A stretch of DNA of 64,000 bases. Origin: an uncultured Candidatus Saccharibacteria bacterium. GTDB lineage: Bacteria > Patescibacteriota > Saccharimonadia > Saccharimonadales > AWTP1-31. A program made the position numbers and the translations under genes. The DNA is taken from assembly GCA_937903325.1 (NCBI GenBank), contig CALCZR010000060.1:210404-274403 (forward strand), written 5' to 3'. Below the pieces are notes generated by a model. It was not told the origin of the DNA. It saw only the letters and a list, made by a program, of their open reading frames with translations, and did not search any database. Below, one piece after another: positions 8,688-13,965 of the stretch; the stretch's first letter is position 1, and each line of letters opens with the position of its first letter.

Positions 8688-9266
8688 TTACTTGTCCTTT
8701 TGCTCAGGCTTCTTTGGGTTTTTTGGTGCGGACTTGAGAAGCTTGCCGTTTTTGTGCTTGTCTGACTGCTTAAGTGACTTTTCTAGAATCTCTAGTACTG
8801 ACTTAGCATGGTCCTTACTCATACCAATACGGGCTACAGCCAGTGGCTGGCTACCTTGCTGGCCGGTACCCTGGAAGAAGTTCATGACCACACCGAAGTC
8901 GTTGATCATGACATGTACCATGTCGGTATATACTACGCGGAGATCTACAGGCATCATCATGGCAACGGGCTGTTCGAGATTAAACATGGCACCTTGTTGA
9001 CCAGCACTCTTGCCATCTACATATCCAGCGAGTTCCCACAGAGTGTCGGCCTCTTCTTCTTTGATCTCTAGATAACTAATAAGAACCATCAGAGTATCTT
9101 CTGCTGGGCGTTGGGCGCCTTGTTCAATACGCTTAAAGGTATCTTCATCTAATTCAATAGCACCAGAAGCTTCGGTAACAGTTCGCTTGCGTGAAATACG
9201 GGCGGCCTTGAGTTTAGCACCTAAAGCACTATAAGGGTTGGCTGGTTGTCCCGCGTCATTACTCAT
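8688..9266 (-). CDS. XRE-family HTH protein with DUF3467-like C-terminal domain
   Basis: HTH segment LGAKLKAARISRKRTVTEASGAIELDEDTFKRIEQG. C-terminal VVYTDMVHVMINDFGVVMNFFQ. ATG at 9266 chosen (MSNDAGQ). Confidence 0.55.
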   Translation of the reverse strand: MSNDAGQPANPYSALGAKLKAARISRKRTVTEASGAIELDEDTFKRIEQGAQRPAEDTLMVLISYLEIKEEEADTLWELAGYVDGKSAGQQGAMFNLEQPVAMMMPVDLRVVYTDMVHVMINDFGVVMNFFQGTGQQGSQPLAVARIGMSKDHAKSVLEILEKSLKQSDKHKNGKLLKSAPKNPKKPEQKDK

Positions 9267-9338
9267 CCCATATATTTTACTCTGGAGCGCAAATCTGATC
9301 AAGTAACCGGTCGAACTATACGGTATGATATATACATT

Positions 9339-10367
9339 ATGCATATGCTAAAAGACGTCTCCCTTGTTAAGCACTCCACCATGCGCCTTGGTGGCAAAGC
9401 AAGCTACCTTACCGAGATTACTGACAAACAAGAGATTCCTGAGGCCCTTGCCTGGGCCGCCAAAGAAAATCTCCCAGTCATGATGATCGGGGACGGTAGT
9501 AATATTGTCTGGGGAGACAAAGGCTTTAAGGGATTAATTCTGATTAACAAGATCATGGGCTTCAAGATCTCCGAACATGACGAAGACGAAGTCTACGTAC
9601 AAGTCGGAGCAGGGGAGAACTGGGACAAGGTAGTTGCCCGCACGGTTACTAAAGACTTGCACGGCATAGAAGCCTTGTCACTCGTTCCCGGAACAGCCGG
9701 GGCCACGCCGGTACAAAACGTTGGAGCCTACGGACAAGATATCTCCCAGACCTTAGTGAGCGTTGAGGTATACGACGCCAAACTCCAAAGCATTGTTACC
9801 CTTCCCGCAGAGGACTGTGGTTTTGGATATCGGACCAGCAGGTTCAAGACCAAGGACCGTGGTCGCTTCTTTATCACTTCACTTATCTTCTGTCTGCAGC
9901 GCACCAATCCAAAAGCCCCGTACTATGACGCTGTCCAGAAATATCTCGATGAGCAGAAGATTACCAAGGTTACTCCTCAGGTACTCCGCGATGCCGTCAT
10001 AGCCATACGGAGCGCTAAACTCCCCGACCCTGCAAAGGTTGCGAACAACGGATCCTTTTTTGCCAACCCCATTGTCACTAAAGCTCGTTTTGAAGCAGTC
10101 TCCCAGCAGTACCCGGACGTTGCTAACTGGCCACTCAAAGATGGCACCTACAAACTATCTGCTGCTTGGCTAATAGAAACTGCTGGCTACAAGAACTTCC
10201 ATGACCTGTATACCGGCATGGCCACCTGGCCCACACAGCCACTAGTATTGGTAAATGAGAAGGCTAAAAGCACTGCTGATCTACTCATATTCAGAAACCG
10301 TATTATGAATGATGTACACCACAAGTTTGGCGTACGTTTGCAGCAAGAGCCAGAACTAATATCATAA
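9339..10367 (+). CDS. murB: UDP-N-acetylmuramate dehydrogenase
   Basis: HSTMRLGGKA...MIGDGSNI...FGYRTSRF...GSFFANP motifs. Start at MHMLKDV. Confidence 0.85.
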   Translation: MHMLKDVSLVKHSTMRLGGKASYLTEITDKQEIPEALAWAAKENLPVMMIGDGSNIVWGDKGFKGLILINKIMGFKISEHDEDEVYVQVGAGENWDKVVARTVTKDLHGIEALSLVPGTAGATPVQNVGAYGQDISQTLVSVEVYDAKLQSIVTLPAEDCGFGYRTSRFKTKDRGRFFITSLIFCLQRTNPKAPYYDAVQKYLDEQKITKVTPQVLRDAVIAIRSAKLPDPAKVANNGSFFANPIVTKARFEAVSQQYPDVANWPLKDGTYKLSAAWLIETAGYKNFHDLYTGMATWPTQPLVLVNEKAKSTADLLIFRNRIMNDVHHKFGVRLQQEPELIS

Positions 10368-10396: not shown

Positions 10397-10978
10397 ATGC
10401 AACAACAGATCAACTCCATTGACGAGCTCATTGCACTAGTTAAAGAGAATCAACAATCAGCCGACCGTTTAGTTATTGGCATCTCTGGTTTTGGTGGCTC
10501 TGGTAAATCTACTTTATGCAATAAACTTAGTAGTCGATTTCCAACAGCAACGGTTATACATGTAGATGACTTTATTGAGACTAACGAAGACGGGGCACTG
10601 CCCGGCTACCCGCATGACTGGAATAAGTTCGAAGAGCTTACACTCAAGAGACTCAAGAGCGGCAACTCAGTGACCAGCAAGATCTATGACTGGCAAACTA
10701 ACAAACTTATCAACACTAAAACAACGGTATCACAGCTTATTCTCATAGATGGGCCGGCCACGCTTCTGCAGGAAAAGTACCGTCCATATATTGACCTTTC
10801 TATCTGGCTCGATGTACCTCATGAAGTCGCCACTGCCCGTGGTAAGAAGCGCGACAAAGAAGAGCAAGGTGTTGACCATGACGAACTCTGGGATACTGTA
10901 TGGGCCCCTCTAGAAGCTCAAGGATTCCAAGACAATCGTCCGGATAAGCAAGCAGATATTCTTTTCCCTAATCCTTAG
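10397..10978 (+). CDS. P-loop nucleoside kinase (uridine kinase/PRK family-like)
   Basis: Walker A GISGFGGSGKSTL, 193 aa. Confidence 0.5.
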   Translation: MQQQINSIDELIALVKENQQSADRLVIGISGFGGSGKSTLCNKLSSRFPTATVIHVDDFIETNEDGALPGYPHDWNKFEELTLKRLKSGNSVTSKIYDWQTNKLINTKTTVSQLILIDGPATLLQEKYRPYIDLSIWLDVPHEVATARGKKRDKEEQGVDHDELWDTVWAPLEAQGFQDNRPDKQADILFPNP

Positions 10979-12234
10979 CTGGGTAGTGGGAACTTCAGGG
11001 CAAACTCAGTGATTTCAGCGTGAAGCTTAGCTAACGCCTTTTCGTCTTTTTGGCTCTTTACTGCCTTCTCGATCCATTCAGCCACGAGTTCCATTTCTGC
11101 CTCCTTCATGCCACGGGTCGTAAGAGCAGGGGTACCAAGACGGATACCGCTTGGGTCATATGGAGAACGTGGATCGAATGGCACGGTGTTCTTGTTAACT
11201 GTAATACCAGCAAGTCCCAGAGCTTTCTCCCCTTCCTTGCCACTAATACCTTTATTGTTGAGGTCTACAACCATGAGGTGGTTGTCTGTTCCGCCAGTCA
11301 CCAAGTTAAAGCCACGCTTAATCAGCTCATCTGCGAGCTTACTGGCGTTCTTAGCAATCTGCTTACCATATTCCTTAAATTCTGGAGTCAGCGCTTCGCG
11401 TAGTGCTACCGCAATAGCAGCCGTCTGGTGGTTATGCGGACCACCCTGCAGTCCCGGGATAATAGCCCGGTCAATGAGGGATGGGATATTTTCTACGGTA
11501 CGCTCTGGCTTCTTAAGTGGGTTAGATGGGTTGCCGTTGGCTAGTAGCAGTGCACCACGTGGACCACGGAGTGTCTTGTGGGTCGTCGTCATGGTGACAT
11601 CCACGATACCAATCGGAGATGGATGCACTCCGGCTACGACGAGGCCTGCAATGTGTGAAATGTCAGCAGCTAAAAAGGCACCTACTGAATCGGCAATCTC
11701 CCGCATCTTCTTCCAGTCAATGATTCGAGGATAGGCAGTCGTACCGGCCATGATCAGCTTTGGTTTTTCCTTTAGGGCTAGTTCAGCAATAGCGTCATAG
11801 TCCATAAAGCCATCTTTGTCAGTAGTGTACTGCACCGAATGGTAGGTAGTCCCTGAGAAGTTTACCTTTAGTCCATGGGTCATATGACCACCGTACTGCA
11901 AGCTCATACCCATGACAGTGTCGCCGGGATCTACCAACCCAAAGTAAATCGCCTGGTTAGCTGGGCTACCTGAATACGGTTGCACATTAGCATGTGTCAC
12001 CCCAAACAGCTCCTTGGCCCGATCTCGAGCAATATTCTCTACTTTATCTACAAATTCACAGCCACCGTAGTAGCGCTGCCCTGGATAGCCTTCCGAGTAC
12101 TTATCTGTTAGCCGTGAACCGAGTGCCTCTAGTACATCTCCAGATGTATGATTCTCACTGGGAATCATCTCAAGCCCGACAAGTTGTCGGTTTGTTTCAG
12201 CCTTAATAAGCTTTTCAATGTCTTTGTCTTTCAT
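10975..12234 (-). CDS. glyA: serine hydroxymethyltransferase
   Basis: 419 aa with LEMIPSENHTS, PLP-lysine region TTTTHKTLRGPRG. Confidence 0.95.
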   Translation of the reverse strand: MKDKDIEKLIKAETNRQLVGLEMIPSENHTSGDVLEALGSRLTDKYSEGYPGQRYYGGCEFVDKVENIARDRAKELFGVTHANVQPYSGSPANQAIYFGLVDPGDTVMGMSLQYGGHMTHGLKVNFSGTTYHSVQYTTDKDGFMDYDAIAELALKEKPKLIMAGTTAYPRIIDWKKMREIADSVGAFLAADISHIAGLVVAGVHPSPIGIVDVTMTTTHKTLRGPRGALLLANGNPSNPLKKPERTVENIPSLIDRAIIPGLQGGPHNHQTAAIAVALREALTPEFKEYGKQIAKNASKLADELIKRGFNLVTGGTDNHLMVVDLNNKGISGKEGEKALGLAGITVNKNTVPFDPRSPYDPSGIRLGTPALTTRGMKEAEMELVAEWIEKAVKSQKDEKALAKLHAEITEFALKFPLPS

Positions 12235-12374: not shown

Positions 12375-12402
12375 GGCGCTACCTAGGCGCTATATATAGC
12401 GC
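12375..12402. promoter_or_regulatory. candidate operator: GGCGCTA direct repeat plus perfect 16-bp palindrome GCGCTATATATAGCGC
   Basis: GGCGCTA at 12375-12381 and 12386-12392 (11-bp register). Palindrome at 12387-12402 abuts the -35 of the HTH-murA promoter. Confidence 0.4.
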
Positions 12403-12430
12403 TTGTATTTAATACCCCAGGTGGTATACT
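12403..12430 (+). promoter_or_regulatory. candidate sigma70-type promoter of HTH-murA (TTGTAT-N16-TATACT)
   Basis: The -10 ends 11 nt before the ATG at 12442 and there is no SD sequence, so the leader would be very short. Confidence 0.4.
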
Positions 12431-12441
12431 AAACGCTGTCT

Positions 12442-13965
12442 ATGGCAAGTACTAACGAGAAAATCGGCAAACTTATTTACCAAATAAGGCAAGATCGTGG
12501 CTTAACTCAAGCCGCCTTCGCCAAGCAACTTGGCACTAGCCAATCAGCTGTAAACCGTATCGAACACGGCAAACAGAATCTCAGCCTTGAAACTCTTGGG
12601 CGCATCAGTGACGTCCTTAATAAGCCACTTATCCAAATTGGTGAAACTGGTGTGAACCTGAGAGTAGAAGGTGGCCACGAACTACACGGCGATATTACGC
12701 TCAAGAAAAGTAAGAATGCTGCTGTTGCCCTCCTTTGCGCTGCCTTGCTTAACCACGGTGTCACTCGCTTCAAAGCATTTCCTCGCATCGAGGAAGTAAA
12801 CCGCATTGTTGAAGTACTGGAGAGTATTGGCGTAAAGATTAAGTGGCTTCCTAATAACGACATTGAGATCCGTCGACCAGCAGAACTTAATCTTGGAGCC
12901 ATTAATGCCACAGCCGCTCGAAAGACTCGAAGCGTTCTCATGCTCCTCGGCCCCCTCATGCACGAACTCAAGTCCTTTAATATTCCATATGCCGGTGGTT
13001 GTAAGCTTGGCACTCGTACCGTTGAGCCCCACCTGCTAGCTCTGGAACAATTTGGCGTTGGTGTTGTAGCCCGAACCGGCCACTACGAAGTAGTTGTCGA
13101 CAAGAAATTGCCCGAAGACCATGTCGTACTATATGAAGCCGGCAACACAGTTACTAACAATGCCCTGATGGCTGCTGCTCGAAGTAGGGGTACAACCGTT
13201 ATCCATGGTGCCAGTGCTGACTATATGGTCCAGGACCTCTGTATGTTCCTAAAGCGCCTTGGGGTAAAGATCTCCGGTATTGGATCTTCCGTCTTAACCG
13301 TTGAAGGTGTTCCAACCATTAAGAAGAACATTACCTTTGAGCCGACTGAAGACCCCATTGAAGCCATGTTCTTTATTTCAGTTGCTATCACGACCAACTC
13401 GCATATTACGGTTAACCGTGTCCCTATTGACTGGATTGGCCTCGAGCTTTTCAAGCTCAAAGTCATGGGCCTCAACTACAAGACCTCCAAGCGCTATCGT
13501 GCTGCCAATGATGTAACGGATCTCGTAGATCTCGAGATTAACAAACACAACGGTAACCTTATTGCCCCACACGACAAACTCCACCCTAATCTGTGGCCCG
13601 GCATTAACCCCGACAACATTCCCTACTTTGTACCAATTGTCGCTACCGCTAAAGGTCGCACCCTTATCCATGACTGGATCTTCGAGAACCGTGCCATTTA
13701 CTATACTGAAATGACCAAGATTGGCGCCCAAGTAGAACTTGCCGACCCACATCGTGTCTACATACAAGGCCCGACTAAGTTCACCAAAGCTGACGTCGTT
13801 TGTCCACCGGCCCTCCGCCCCGCCAGTCTACTCCTTATCGGCATGCTTGCCGCAGAAGGAACCTCGATCCTGCGTAATGTCTACACTATTAACCGTGGCT
13901 ACGAAGATATAGCCGAACGACTAAATAGCCTCGGCGCCAAGATCACCGTTCTGCACGAACTGTAA
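12442..13965 (+). CDS. murA: XRE-type HTH domain fused to UDP-N-acetylglucosamine 1-carboxyvinyltransferase
   Basis: Residues 1-65 form an HTH (GLTQAAFAKQLGTSQSAVNRIEHGKQNLSLETL). The rest is MurA (KSKNAAVALLCAALL, catalytic Cys in PYAGGCKLGTR, C-terminal INRGYEDIAERL). Single uninterrupted 507-aa ORF. Confidence 0.85.
   Translation: MASTNEKIGKLIYQIRQDRGLTQAAFAKQLGTSQSAVNRIEHGKQNLSLETLGRISDVLNKPLIQIGETGVNLRVEGGHELHGDITLKKSKNAAVALLCAALLNHGVTRFKAFPRIEEVNRIVEVLESIGVKIKWLPNNDIEIRRPAELNLGAINATAARKTRSVLMLLGPLMHELKSFNIPYAGGCKLGTRTVEPHLLALEQFGVGVVARTGHYEVVVDKKLPEDHVVLYEAGNTVTNNALMAAARSRGTTVIHGASADYMVQDLCMFLKRLGVKISGIGSSVLTVEGVPTIKKNITFEPTEDPIEAMFFISVAITTNSHITVNRVPIDWIGLELFKLKVMGLNYKTSKRYRAANDVTDLVDLEINKHNGNLIAPHDKLHPNLWPGINPDNIPYFVPIVATAKGRTLIHDWIFENRAIYYTEMTKIGAQVELADPHRVYIQGPTKFTKADVVCPPALRPASLLLIGMLAAEGTSILRNVYTINRGYEDIAERLNSLGAKITVLHEL

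What the first reader, a model, noticed from the sequence alone, without database searches (positions are those of the whole stretch)
12442..13965. MurA fused to an N-terminal XRE helix-turn-helix domain
One uninterrupted 507-aa ORF encodes about 65 residues of XRE-type HTH followed by a complete MurA with its catalytic Cys (PYAGGCKLGTR). As far as I know MurA is normally a stand-alone enzyme of about 420 aa. An enzyme/transcription-factor fusion at the first committed step of peptidoglycan synthesis would let substrate or product occupancy feed back directly on transcription. Alternatively it could tether the enzyme to DNA. I am not aware of this architecture being functionally characterised.
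Basis: partly seen in the sequence, partly recalled or inferred. Interest (0 to 1): 0.65.

Follow-up and report, generated by a model that had tools for sequence, protein, structure and literature searches.

The report
MurA enzyme with built-in repressor domain
The first committed enzyme of bacterial cell-wall synthesis is here fused to a DNA-binding domain whose likely target, a palindrome over the gene's own promoter, is conserved with the fusion across the ultra-small Patescibacteria, so the enzyme probably shuts off its own gene; I found no paper describing this.

Summary
Window 12442-13965 (+) is one 507-codon ORF encoding an XRE-type HTH (aa 2-59), a roughly 12-residue linker and a complete MurA with every catalytic residue checked.

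It is not a misassembly. The same ~506-aa architecture occurs in more than 60 Saccharibacteria species genomes, in Paceibacterota and Liptonbacteria, and in the actinomycete Nonomuraea.

An 18-bp inverted repeat, consensus TATAYC-N6-GRTATA (window 12411-12428), overlaps the extended -10 box of the fusion's own near-leaderless promoter in almost every locus. Its spacer-side arm is specific to murA promoters (38/49 against 2/58 controls, p = 1e-16). It is absent from all four relatives that lack or have degraded the HTH. In some lineages it is shared with a back-to-back murB.

A side branch has lost the catalytic residues but keeps the HTH and the operator. It sits inside mur operons next to a canonical murA, which looks like an enzyme-derived regulator.

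Best reading: a bifunctional MurA and autorepressor of the BirA/PutA type. This is a new variant of a known kind. DNA binding, enzyme activity and any ligand coupling remain untested.

The parts
12442..13965 (+). HTH-MurA fusion gene (507 codons plus stop)
   Evidence: ORF; two-domain architecture; conserved in 120 of 120 clusters and more than 60 genomes.
12445..12618 (+). XRE-type helix-turn-helix domain, aa 2-59 (Pfam HTH_3 at aa 12-63)
   Evidence: four helices (2-18, 23-30, 34-41, 49-59) in the AlphaFold model, pLDDT 74-88. Mean pairwise identity among Saccharibacteria is 0.825, against 0.780 for the enzyme domain.
12535..12570 (+). Predicted recognition helix TSQSAVNRIEHG (aa 32-43)
   Evidence: Nearly invariant as TSQSA[VI][NA]R[IM]E.G from Saccharibacteria to Nonomuraea and the dead-enzyme fusions. 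The same helix type occurs in unrelated XRE antitoxins encoded behind the same palindrome. Assignment as the recognition helix is by analogy with XRE/Cro-type HTH domains.
12619..12654 (+). Inter-domain linker, aa 60-71 (NKPLIQIGETGV)
   Evidence: Lowest-confidence stretch of the model, with pLDDT below 50 at residues 66-68. Least conserved segment, mean identity 0.683 over aa 67-76.
12655..13962 (+). Complete MurA (UDP-GlcNAc 1-carboxyvinyltransferase) domain, aa 72-507
   Evidence: Foldseek TM 0.94 and rmsd 2.1 A to E. coli MurA 1uae. Equivalents of K22, N23, R91, C115, R120, D305, R331, R371 and R397 are all present.
13000..13002 (+). Codon of catalytic Cys187 (equivalent to E. coli Cys115)
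   Evidence: It lies in a low-pLDDT loop at residues 187-191.
12411..12428 (.). Candidate operator AATACC-CCAGGT-GGTATA (family consensus TATAYC-N6-GRTATA, often TATATCA-N4-TGATATA)
   Evidence: The only exact match in the 64-kb window and the top-scoring upstream region among about 60 window ORFs. Found at a fixed position, -26 to -32, in 56 of 66 Saccharibacteria loci against 1.6% of background windows. Left arm is specific to murA promoters. Present in divergent, dead-enzyme and Nonomuraea fusions. Absent from HTH-less relatives.
12422..12430 (+). Extended -10 promoter element TGG-TATACT, overlapping the right operator arm
   Evidence: Sequence read directly. TGnTATAAT-like in nearly all loci. 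In 52 of 62 loci, 9-11 nt separate the -10 from the start codon, implying a leaderless or near-leaderless mRNA (inference). The generic sigma-70 scan did not report this promoter.
12403..12408 (+). Possible weak -35 element TTGTAT (16-nt spacer)
   Evidence: Read directly. The -35 region is only weakly conserved across loci, below 0.3 bits per position.

Best explanation
The gene encodes a bifunctional protein. It is an active MurA, the first committed step of peptidoglycan precursor synthesis. Its N-terminal XRE helix-turn-helix domain binds, probably as a dimer, an 18-bp inverted repeat that overlaps the extended -10 box of the gene's own near-leaderless promoter. Binding there would block RNA polymerase and repress the gene, so MurA supply limits itself. 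In other lineages one bound site would also cover a back-to-back murB promoter or face a mur operon. What is shown: the architecture, the conserved catalytic residues, the conserved HTH, and the operator's position, specificity and co-occurrence with the HTH. What is inferred: that this HTH is the protein that binds the operator; that binding represses; that the protein dimerises; and that the MurA domain's ligand state (open or closed; UDP-GlcNAc, PEP, or the UDP-MurNAc feedback complex known for MurA) modulates DNA binding. I give the ligand-coupling step only about 0.35-0.4.
For: (1) The architecture is real and under selection. The HTH is at least as conserved as the enzyme (0.825 against 0.780).
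(2) Enzyme competence: all nine catalytic or substrate residues checked are present. The same full set occurs in 124 of 135 aligned sequences, nearly all of them fusions. The fold matches MurA (TM 0.94).
(3) Operator position: the inverted repeat scores at least 10 of 12 at -26 to -32 in 56 of 66 Saccharibacteria loci, against 1.6% of random 80-nt windows.
(4) Operator specificity: the spacer-side arm, which a promoter does not need, scores at least 5 of 6 in 38 of 49 murA promoters, against 2 of 58 comparably placed -10 sites before other ORFs (Fisher p = 1.2e-16). It carries 1.0-1.9 bits per position, in a spacer whose flanks carry under 0.5 bits.
(5) Co-occurrence across deep divergence: the site lies at exactly -26 in Paceibacterota, Liptonbacteria and two dead-enzyme loci and is present in L072-L075. 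Nonomuraea has a GC-shifted palindrome, ATCTCATATGTGAGAT, at -29. The recognition helix stays nearly invariant throughout.
(6) Negative controls: three non-fused relatives and one with a degraded HTH all lack the site, scoring 8-9 of 12, which is background level.
(7) The only constant neighbour of the operator is the fusion gene. Flanking genes differ: glyA here, mreB, murB, or a murD operon.
(8) Targets make biological sense. murB sits back-to-back with the fusion and shares the palindrome in L161, L145 and L148. The fusion is divergent from a murD...murA-murB operon in L076 and L077.
(9) The regulatory role can stand alone. Eleven fusions have lost C115, and most of them also R91, R120 and R371, while keeping the HTH and operator. 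They sit beside a canonical murA.
(10) Unrelated XRE antitoxins encoded behind the same palindrome carry the same helix type, for example TSQSAIARLESG.
Against: There is no experimental evidence for DNA binding, repression, dimerisation or enzyme activity. The right arm of the palindrome is itself an extended -10 box, so part of its conservation is explained by promoter function alone. The information profile is partly circular, because sites were picked by match to the consensus. MurA enzymes are generally monomeric (my knowledge), and the model gives no dimer interface or docking of the HTH onto the enzyme. The window copy is one of the weaker palindromes: 5-bp perfect arms, 11 of 12 to the consensus. 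The protein misses the strict MurA equivalog cut-off (TIGR01072) and is only 26-33% identical to canonical MurA, so activity is inferred from residues and context. I could not scan a whole Saccharibacteria genome for a second murA or for further operator copies. No extra sites were seen in 64 kb plus about 800 kb of flanks.
Confidence: 0.7

Rival explanations
1. Plain homeostat without metabolite sensing. The HTH autorepresses the gene purely as a function of protein concentration, and the MurA domain's ligand state has no influence on DNA binding. The fusion merely guarantees a 1:1 repressor-to-enzyme ratio. This differs from the best explanation only in its last, inferred step.
For: The linker is short but predicted to be flexible, and the model shows no confident contact between the HTH and the enzyme. 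In Saccharibacteria only the gene's own promoter carries the site, within the DNA I could see. Negative autoregulation is typical of XRE proteins (abstract of PMC12565409).
Against: The dead-enzyme branch keeps a full-length MurA fold of about 430 residues behind the HTH after catalysis was lost. That is hard to explain unless the fold contributes something to regulation, such as ligand sensing or dimerisation.
Confidence: 0.3
2. Regulator only. In Saccharibacteria, as in the dead branch, the MurA-like domain is just a sensor, and a separate canonical MurA elsewhere in the genome performs catalysis.
For: Two-paralogue genomes exist (L072, L075, L076, L077). The window protein falls below the TIGR01072 equivalog cut-off. 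I could not search a whole Saccharibacteria genome.
Against: All nine catalytic or substrate residues are conserved in 124 of 135 aligned sequences. They decay precisely in the lineages that do have a canonical murA next door, which argues that where they persist they are needed. No second murA lies in the 64-kb window or within 6 kb either side in about 66 loci. Non-fused members of the same clade (L062, P0122, P0124, P0126) look like ordinary stand-alone enzymes.
Confidence: 0.1
3. The HTH is a protein-protein adaptor rather than a DNA binder, for example RodZ-like docking onto MreB. The palindrome would then be only a special promoter, or the site of some other regulator.
For: RodZ uses an XRE-like HTH to bind MreB (my knowledge). 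In Paceibacterota and Liptonbacteria the fusion gene is divergent from mreB. Half of the palindrome is a -10 box.
Against: The RodZ-type Pfam family HTH_25 is not among the hits at E <= 0.01, whereas HTH_3 and four other Pfam HTH families score at E <= 1e-5. The spacer-side arm is murA-specific. Presence of the operator tracks presence and integrity of the HTH in 4 of 4 negative cases and in all fused lineages tested. No other gene is constantly linked to the site. The same helix type and palindrome pair recurs in toxin-antitoxin operons.
Confidence: 0.07
4. Assembly or gene-calling artefact: two adjacent genes (an XRE regulator and murA) wrongly joined.
For: None found. Three of about 63 homologous loci (L028, L059, L060) have an interrupted frame.
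Against: Hundreds of independent assemblies from four sources give the same uninterrupted ~506-aa frame, including genomes of cultured Nonomuraea in RefSeq. The interruptions in L028, L059 and L060 fall at different places; L028 is a 2.6x-coverage contig.
Confidence: 0.01

Closest known systems
BirA (biotin protein ligase and bio-operon repressor, E. coli)
   Same: An N-terminal helix-turn-helix DNA-binding domain is fused to a fully active biosynthetic enzyme. The protein represses genes of its own pathway at a palindromic operator overlapping the promoters (my knowledge).
   Different: BirA has a winged HTH and a biotin-ligase fold, and it represses the bio operon rather than birA itself. 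Its co-repressor is the enzyme's own intermediate, which drives dimerisation. Here the HTH is XRE-type and the enzyme is MurA. The operator is on the gene's own promoter, and no co-repressor or dimerisation mechanism is known.
PutA and NadR (other enzyme-repressor fusions, the 'trigger enzymes' with their own DNA-binding domain)
   Same: Catalytic and DNA-binding functions sit in one polypeptide, linking pathway flux to transcription of pathway genes. PutA also regulates its own gene from a divergent intergenic region (my knowledge).
   Different: The DNA-binding folds differ (ribbon-helix-helix in PutA), as do the enzymes and signals (redox state and membrane binding for PutA). No cell-wall enzyme is known in this class. 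A search for 'trigger enzyme' plus MurA found nothing relevant.
Transcription factors with enzyme-derived, catalytically dead sensor domains (ROK repressors NagC/Mlc, MocR/GabR, B. subtilis PurR)
   Same: The dead-MurA branch (P0127, P0132, P0138, P0142, P0145, P0162, P0165, P0286, P0287, P0385, P0403) has an HTH plus an enzyme fold stripped of its catalytic residues. It sits among the genes it presumably controls.
   Different: The sensor fold is the EPSP-synthase/MurA fold, which to my knowledge has not been described as a regulator's sensor domain. The window protein itself is not dead.
XRE-family antitoxins and autorepressors (HigA, HipB, Y4mF type)
   Same: The closest HTH-only matches are antitoxin families: TIGR03070 at E 3e-13, plus HipB and HigA. 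Gp49/HigB-like toxin plus XRE operons carry the same TATATCA-N4-TGATATA-plus-TATAAT promoter palindrome and a similar recognition helix.
   Different: Those are small proteins of about 100 aa partnered with a toxin. Here the partner is a covalently attached 435-aa housekeeping enzyme, and no toxin gene is linked.
Canonical MurA and its known controls
   Same: Same fold and catalytic residues. MurA is a known control point. PDB entries such as 3swd, 3su9 and 8d84 show the UDP-MurNAc plus PEP-Cys complex, which I know as the feedback-inhibited 'dormant' form. Gram-positive bacteria also control MurA by ClpCP proteolysis through ReoM (my knowledge).
   Different: Known controls are post-translational. 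Canonical MurA is about 420 aa with no DNA-binding domain, and all 40-plus solved MurA chains listed are 411-438 residues. The fused clade is only 26-33% identical to canonical MurA and has Ala in place of E. coli Asp369.
RodZ
   Same: An N-terminal XRE-like HTH in a cell-wall morphogenesis protein. Some fusion genes neighbour mreB.
   Different: RodZ is a membrane protein whose HTH binds MreB rather than DNA (my knowledge). The fusion shows no HTH_25 match, and the model shows only the two soluble domains.

Membership tests
MurA (UDP-N-acetylglucosamine 1-carboxyvinyltransferase, EC 2.5.1.7) | Two-lobed EPSP-synthase/MurA fold over the full length | tested here: met
   Pfam EPSP_synthase covers profile positions 1-417 of 417. 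The AlphaFold model (pLDDT 89) superposes on E. coli MurA 1uae with TM 0.94 and rmsd 2.1 A.
MurA (UDP-N-acetylglucosamine 1-carboxyvinyltransferase, EC 2.5.1.7) | Catalytic and substrate-binding residues (E. coli K22, N23, R91, C115, R120, D305, R331, R371, R397) | tested here: met
   All are present at window residues K91, R163, C187, R192, D391, R417, R459 and R485, with N23 equivalent to N92 (read from the KSKNAAV motif; one search lists the others). E. coli D369 is Ala in this whole clade.
MurA (UDP-N-acetylglucosamine 1-carboxyvinyltransferase, EC 2.5.1.7) | Curated family score thresholds | tested here: inconclusive
   Passes NCBIfam subfamily PRK09369 (319.7 against 297) but fails equivalog TIGR01072 (303.8 against 392.7) and PRK12830 (213.5 against 552). 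This is a divergent MurA clade.
MurA (UDP-N-acetylglucosamine 1-carboxyvinyltransferase, EC 2.5.1.7) | Enolpyruvyl transfer from PEP to UDP-GlcNAc | not testable with these tools
   Needs an enzyme assay. Indirect support: catalytic residues decay only where a canonical murA is also present.
XRE (Cro/C1-type, HTH_3) transcription regulators | HTH_3 domain above the curated threshold, with the helical fold | tested here: met
   55.7 bits against a cut-off of 23. Four helices at residues 2-59 in the model.
XRE (Cro/C1-type, HTH_3) transcription regulators | Cognate palindromic operator, typically at the regulator's own promoter | tested here: met
   Shown by comparative genomics only. The window site is 12411-12428.
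XRE (Cro/C1-type, HTH_3) transcription regulators | Sequence-specific DNA binding as a dimer | not testable with these tools
   Single-chain model only. Needs EMSA or footprinting, and SEC-MALS for the oligomeric state.
Bifunctional enzyme-repressors ('trigger enzymes' with their own DNA-binding domain: BirA, PutA, NadR). A functional class, not a homologous family | Catalytically competent enzyme and DNA-binding domain in one polypeptide | tested here: met
   Met at the sequence and structure-prediction level.
Bifunctional enzyme-repressors ('trigger enzymes' with their own DNA-binding domain: BirA, PutA, NadR). A functional class, not a homologous family | Operator at promoters of the same pathway | tested here: met
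   At its own promoter in all lineages tested. Shared with murB in L161, L145 and L148, and facing the murD...murA-murB operon in L076 and L077.
Bifunctional enzyme-repressors ('trigger enzymes' with their own DNA-binding domain: BirA, PutA, NadR). A functional class, not a homologous family | DNA binding controlled by the enzyme's substrate, product or intermediate | not testable with these tools
   Inference only. In the dead branch the pocket is remodelled (the F328 equivalent is lost, the D305 and R331 equivalents are mostly kept), so the ligand, if any, is unknown.
RodZ-like cytoskeleton adaptors | RodZ-type HTH (Pfam HTH_25) plus a membrane anchor | tested here: not met
   HTH_25 is absent from the Pfam hits at E <= 0.01. 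The protein consists only of the HTH and the soluble MurA fold.

The most novel reading that the evidence does not exclude
HTH-MurA is a metabolite-gated trigger enzyme. The large open-to-closed movement of MurA on binding UDP-GlcNAc and PEP, or the UDP-MurNAc feedback complex, switches the N-terminal HTH between DNA-bound and free states. Cell-wall gene transcription (murA, murB, mur operons) in host-dependent Patescibacteria would then read the supply of a scavenged precursor directly. The catalytically dead branch would be a previously unrecognised family of transcription factors that use the MurA fold as a UDP-sugar sensor. The Nonomuraea copy, which lies next to an integrase, would record gene exchange between Patescibacteria and their actinobacterial host phylum.
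Probability: 0.3. Interest if true: 0.8.

Novelty: new variant of a known kind. Interest (0 to 1): 0.62.

Why it matters
MurA is the first committed step of peptidoglycan synthesis and the target of fosfomycin. Its known regulation is post-translational: feedback inhibition and proteolysis. A MurA that carries its own repressor domain and sits on its own promoter would be a direct transcriptional feedback at the entry point of cell-wall synthesis.

It would also be the standard arrangement in Saccharibacteria and other Patescibacteria. These organisms have tiny genomes and few regulators, their growth depends on a host, and their gene regulation is almost unstudied.

The work yields a concrete operator, a promoter and a candidate small regulon (murA, murB, mur operons) that can be tested with a purified protein and a 30-bp oligonucleotide. 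It also shows, within one family, the states from enzyme through enzyme-plus-repressor to dead-enzyme regulator, which is a useful case of how metabolic enzymes become transcription factors. Database annotation currently calls both the active and the dead forms 'MurA', which would mislead metabolic reconstructions.

Tried and rejected
1. The most obvious palindrome in the window's upstream region, GCGCTATATATAGCGC (12387-12402, flagged as terminator-like), was my first operator candidate. It is not conserved in any related locus except as a degraded copy in L002, so I rejected it.
2. Misassembly is rejected by recurrence.
3. The idea that the palindrome is just how promoters look in these genomes is rejected by two controls. 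The left arm scores at least 5 of 6 in 8 of 221 other -10-like sites, and in 2 of 58 when restricted to sites properly placed before other ORFs, against 38 of 49 at murA.
4. A local regulon in the window: only the murA site matches exactly, the 1-mismatch hits are at chance level (28 of 100 shuffles give at least 3), and no other ORF upstream region scores above 10 of 12.
5. A second murA: none in the window or in the 6-kb flanks of the loci.
6. The generic sigma-70 scan did not report the murA promoter, because its -35 is weak.
7. The structure model gave no information on how the HTH sits relative to the enzyme, because the linker is low-confidence, and none on dimerisation.
8. Five literature searches found nothing on this architecture. 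The one XRE-motif paper that mentioned 'Mura' did so only through an author's name, Murarka.
9. The metagenome scan for the operator pattern returned mostly chance AT-rich matches in unrelated organisms. Only 9 of 80 loci had the fusion gene adjacent, and roughly 8 more lay upstream of XRE-encoding operons.
10. The NJ tree is a rough distance tree and should not be used for fine branching order or for the direction of the Nonomuraea transfer.
Full report
**1. The observation**

Window 12442-13965 (+) is a single ATG-initiated ORF of 507 codons.
- Pfam finds HTH_3 at aa 12-63 (E 5e-15) and EPSP_synthase at aa 75-494, covering the whole 417-position profile.
- NCBIfam places the enzyme part in the MurA subfamily PRK09369 above its cut-off. 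It falls below the strict equivalog TIGR01072.
- All the best PDB sequence matches are MurA.
- The alignment to E. coli MurA 1uae shows equivalents of K22, N23, R91, C115, R120, D305, R331, R371 and R397. Their window positions are given; the Cys is residue 187, nt 13000-13002.
- The AlphaFold model (mean pLDDT 89, pTM 0.83) has a four-helix domain at residues 2-59, a low-confidence linker at about 60-71, and a complete MurA fold. That fold superposes on 1uae with TM 0.94 and rmsd 2.1 A.
- The only other low-confidence stretch is the Cys loop at residues 187-191.
- The window neighbours are murB (9246-10367), a uridine-kinase-family gene, a divergent SHMT gene (glyA type), a convergent GH16 gene and a GT2 gene.

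**2. Not an artefact, and not rare**

- All 120 listed homologue clusters (76-100% identity; NCBI, JGI, ENA and Logan sources) are ~506-529 aa with both domains.
- A scan of one genome per species found the fusion in more than 60 Saccharibacteria/Saccharimonadales genomes. About 60 of 63 full-length loci have an uninterrupted 501-508-codon frame starting at the aligned start codon.
- A profile search retrieved 1,862 proteins at E <= 1e-10. All of the best 120 have HTH_3 plus EPSP_synthase. Source names include Paceibacterota, Liptonbacteria and 'Patescibacteria group' as well as Saccharibacteria.
- The closest 50%-identity cluster representative is from cultured Nonomuraea, an actinomycete genus (55% identity, 509 aa, 246 member sequences, in RefSeq).
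- Databases name these proteins MurA or 'helix-turn-helix domain-containing protein'.

**3. A conserved operator on the gene's own promoter**

The conspicuous palindrome in the window, GCGCTATATATAGCGC at 12387-12402, is not conserved. A different inverted repeat is conserved instead.
- Its consensus is TATAYC-N6-GRTATA, often TATATCA-N4-TGATATA. The window copy is AATACC-CCAGGT-GGTATA at 12411-12428.
- It scores at least 10 of 12 at a fixed position, -26 to -32 from the start codon, in 56 of 66 Saccharibacteria loci. Only 1.6% of random 80-nt windows from the same DNA reach that score.
- The right arm, together with the preceding T, reads TGnTATAAT, an extended -10 box.
- In 52 of 62 loci only 9-11 nt separate that box from the start codon. 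The mRNA is therefore probably leaderless or nearly so (this is an inference).

Because one arm is a promoter element, the test is the other arm, which lies in the promoter spacer.
- It matches at least 5 of 6 positions in 38 of 49 murA promoters.
- It does so in 8 of 221 other -10-like sites. Three of those eight are the murA sites of L022 and L049, which lie further upstream.
- It does so in 2 of 58 -10-like sites correctly placed before other ORFs of at least 100 codons. Fisher p = 1.2e-16.
- Position by position, the left arm carries 1.0-1.9 bits, in a spacer whose flanks carry under 0.5 bits. This profile is partly circular, because sites were chosen by their match to the consensus.
- In the window, this is the only exact match in 64 kb and the best-scoring upstream region of about 60 ORFs.

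**4. The operator travels with the HTH**

Divergent fusions, whose enzyme domains are only 29-39% identical to the window's, keep HTH domains that are 43-60% identical and a nearly invariant helix TSQSA[VI][NA]R[IM]E.G. They carry the same site:
- L075: TATATCATATATGATATT.
- L074: AATATCAAATATGATATA.
- L072: TATAACATATATGCTATA.
- L076, L077, L078 and L079: 12/12, 12/12, 12/12 and 11/12, all at exactly -26.
- Nonomuraea (69% GC): ATCTCATATGTGAGAT at -29.

The three non-fused members of the same clade (L062, L080, L081) have no site, scoring 8-9 of 12, which is background. The same is true of the one member whose HTH has degenerated (P0130/L082, which reads ITLEEQLGME where the others read TSQSAVNRIE).

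The flanking genes differ between lineages: glyA here, mreB, murB, or a murD operon. The fusion gene is therefore the only constant partner of the site.

**5. Targets beyond autoregulation**

I scanned metagenome contigs for TATATCANNNNTGATATAAT.
- The fusion gene is adjacent in 9 loci.
- In L161 and L145, murB and the fusion gene lie back to back. The intergenic DNA is essentially just the palindrome. Each arm is the -10 box of one of the two genes, which start 6-10 nt away. L148 has the same pairing with longer leaders.
- About eight further hits precede Gp49/HigB-like toxin plus XRE antitoxin operons or lone XRE genes. Those unrelated XRE proteins have recognition helices of the same type: TSQSAIARLESG, T[RK]QSNIARIES and TKQSNISRLESG. 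This is an independent link between this helix type and this half-site.

**6. A catalytically dead branch**

- Eleven fusions (P0127, P0132, P0138, P0142, P0145, P0162, P0165, P0286, P0287, P0385, P0403) lack a Cys at the position equivalent to E. coli C115 (other residues or an alignment gap), and most have also lost R91, R120 and R371.
- By contrast, 124 of 135 aligned sequences keep the full set.
- In the four dead-branch loci L072, L075, L076 and L077, the fusion gene is divergent from an operon that contains a canonical stand-alone murA, with murB in at least three of them and murD plus two mur-ligase genes in L076 and L077. Ddl and/or Mur-ligase genes follow the fusion gene.
- In L073 the site precedes an NTP_transferase-fusion operon, and a 12/12 copy precedes the neighbouring NUDIX gene.
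- On a rough NJ tree, all fusions plus the few non-fused relatives form one clade. That clade is separate from canonical MurA and from the stand-alone copies found in the two-paralogue loci. The non-fused forms are nested among the intact fusions, which suggests secondary loss of the HTH.

Two things follow. The HTH-plus-MurA-fold unit has a selectable function without catalysis, which is most simply regulation. And catalytic residues persist where no canonical murA is seen nearby, which argues that the window protein is a working enzyme.

**7. Mechanism proposed**

The protein makes enolpyruvyl-UDP-GlcNAc. Through its HTH it also binds the palindrome over the -10 box of its own promoter, occluding RNA polymerase. 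In other lineages it would also cover the murB promoter or face a mur operon.
- Shown here: the architecture, residue conservation, and the operator's position, specificity and co-occurrence with the HTH.
- Inferred: that this HTH is the binder, that binding represses, and that two HTHs bind the two arms.
- Speculative, though motivated: that the ligand state of MurA tunes DNA binding. The motivation is the open-to-closed movement of MurA and its UDP-MurNAc/PEP-Cys feedback complex (PDB 3swd, 3su9 and 8d84, listed; the 'dormant complex' interpretation is from my own knowledge). The persistence of the full fold in the dead branch fits a sensor or dimerisation role.
- The dead-branch pocket is remodelled. 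The F328 equivalent is lost, while the D305 and R331 equivalents are mostly kept. I therefore do not claim a ligand for it.

**8. Comparison with what is known**

Functionally this belongs with enzyme-repressor fusions such as BirA, PutA and NadR. The dead branch resembles regulators with enzyme-derived sensor domains (ROK repressors, MocR/GabR, B. subtilis PurR). It is not homologous to any of these.

The HTH is an ordinary XRE/HTH_3 domain, closest to antitoxin-type members. A RodZ-like role as an MreB adaptor was considered. The evidence is against it: there is no HTH_25 match, there is an operator, and the protein is soluble.

Five full-text searches found no description of an HTH-MurA protein. 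The held library lacks most subscription-journal papers, so this is absence of evidence only.

**9. Verdict**

This is a new variant of a known kind. It is a widespread but apparently undescribed bifunctional MurA and autorepressor, with a defined candidate operator and a pseudoenzyme offshoot.

The main limits are the absence of any experiment, the absence of a whole-genome check for a second murA or further sites, a single-chain model only, and only a rough phylogeny.

Noticed in passing
L071 8001-9530 (Nonomuraea sp. NEAU-A123, JAHFZZ010000002.1); protein P0121: The fusion also exists in cultured Nonomuraea (Actinomycetota): 55% identity to the window protein, catalytic residues intact, 246 member sequences. 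The gene lies next to a phage-type integrase and a small HTH_3 gene. Its GC (0.68) matches the locus (0.69). This suggests an old transfer between Patescibacteria and Actinomycetota, the phylum that supplies the known hosts of cultured Saccharibacteria. The direction of transfer is unresolved.
   Followed up: partly
L062 5886-5970, L080 440-513, L081 2935-3007; L082 about 1-70: Every relative that lacks or has degraded the HTH has a tRNA gene (Leu, Ile, Cys) ending less than 40 nt upstream of murA, or in L081 overlapping its called start. L082 has a tRNA-like 3' end that ARAGORN did not call, because it is cut by the contig end. The autoregulated promoter may have been replaced by read-through from a tRNA promoter.
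   Followed up: partly
window 12376-12405: A window-specific perfect 16-bp palindrome, GCGCTATATATAGCGC (12387-12402), is preceded by a direct repeat of GGCGCTA. It lies just upstream of the weak -35 element. It is not conserved in related loci apart from a degraded copy in L002, and the generic scan flags it as terminator-like. Its function is unknown.
   Followed up: partly
L073 3685-3702 and 4241-4258: In one dead-enzyme lineage a 12/12 operator copy lies 50 nt before a NUDIX hydrolase gene, and an 11/12 copy lies 27 nt before an NTP_transferase (sugar-nucleotidyltransferase family) gene that precedes the fusion gene by 4 nt. This hints at a small nucleotide-sugar regulon.
   Followed up: no
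L076 6931-6948 and L077 6593-6610: A 12/12 operator-like site (TATATCTCTTG[TC]GGTATA) lies inside the dead-fusion coding sequence, at +930 in both loci. It may be a second binding site or simply shared coding sequence.
   Followed up: no
L075 6493-8082 and L077 7225-8916: The D-Ala-D-Ala ligase genes downstream of the dead fusions are 529-563 aa long and also hit Peptidase_C39_2. This is an unusual Ddl-peptidase fusion.
   Followed up: no
L098, L103, L123, L128, L135, L141 (metagenome contigs): Gp49/HigB-like toxin plus XRE antitoxin operons from unrelated organisms use the same promoter palindrome, TATATCA-N4-TGATATA followed by AT. The HTH of the fusion may descend from, or share specificity with, this antitoxin group.
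   Followed up: partly
L028, L059, L060: Three Saccharibacteria loci have an interrupted fusion frame: a stop after 22 codons, truncation at 448, and a frameshift near codon 388. L028 is a 2.6x-coverage contig. These could be sequencing errors or genuine pseudogenes.
   Followed up: no
window 10397-10978 (+) and 10975-12234 (-): A uridine-kinase/PRK-family gene lies between murB and the SHMT gene, and its 3' end overlaps the convergent SHMT gene by 4 nt. A nucleoside-salvage kinase beside murB and murA is suggestive for an organism that must scavenge UDP-sugar precursors.
   Followed up: no
whole fused clade (table): E. coli MurA Asp369 is Ala in all members of this clade, fused or not. As I recall, substitutions at Asp369 and Leu370 have been linked to fosfomycin resistance in E. 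coli, so fosfomycin sensitivity of this clade may differ from canonical MurA.
   Followed up: no
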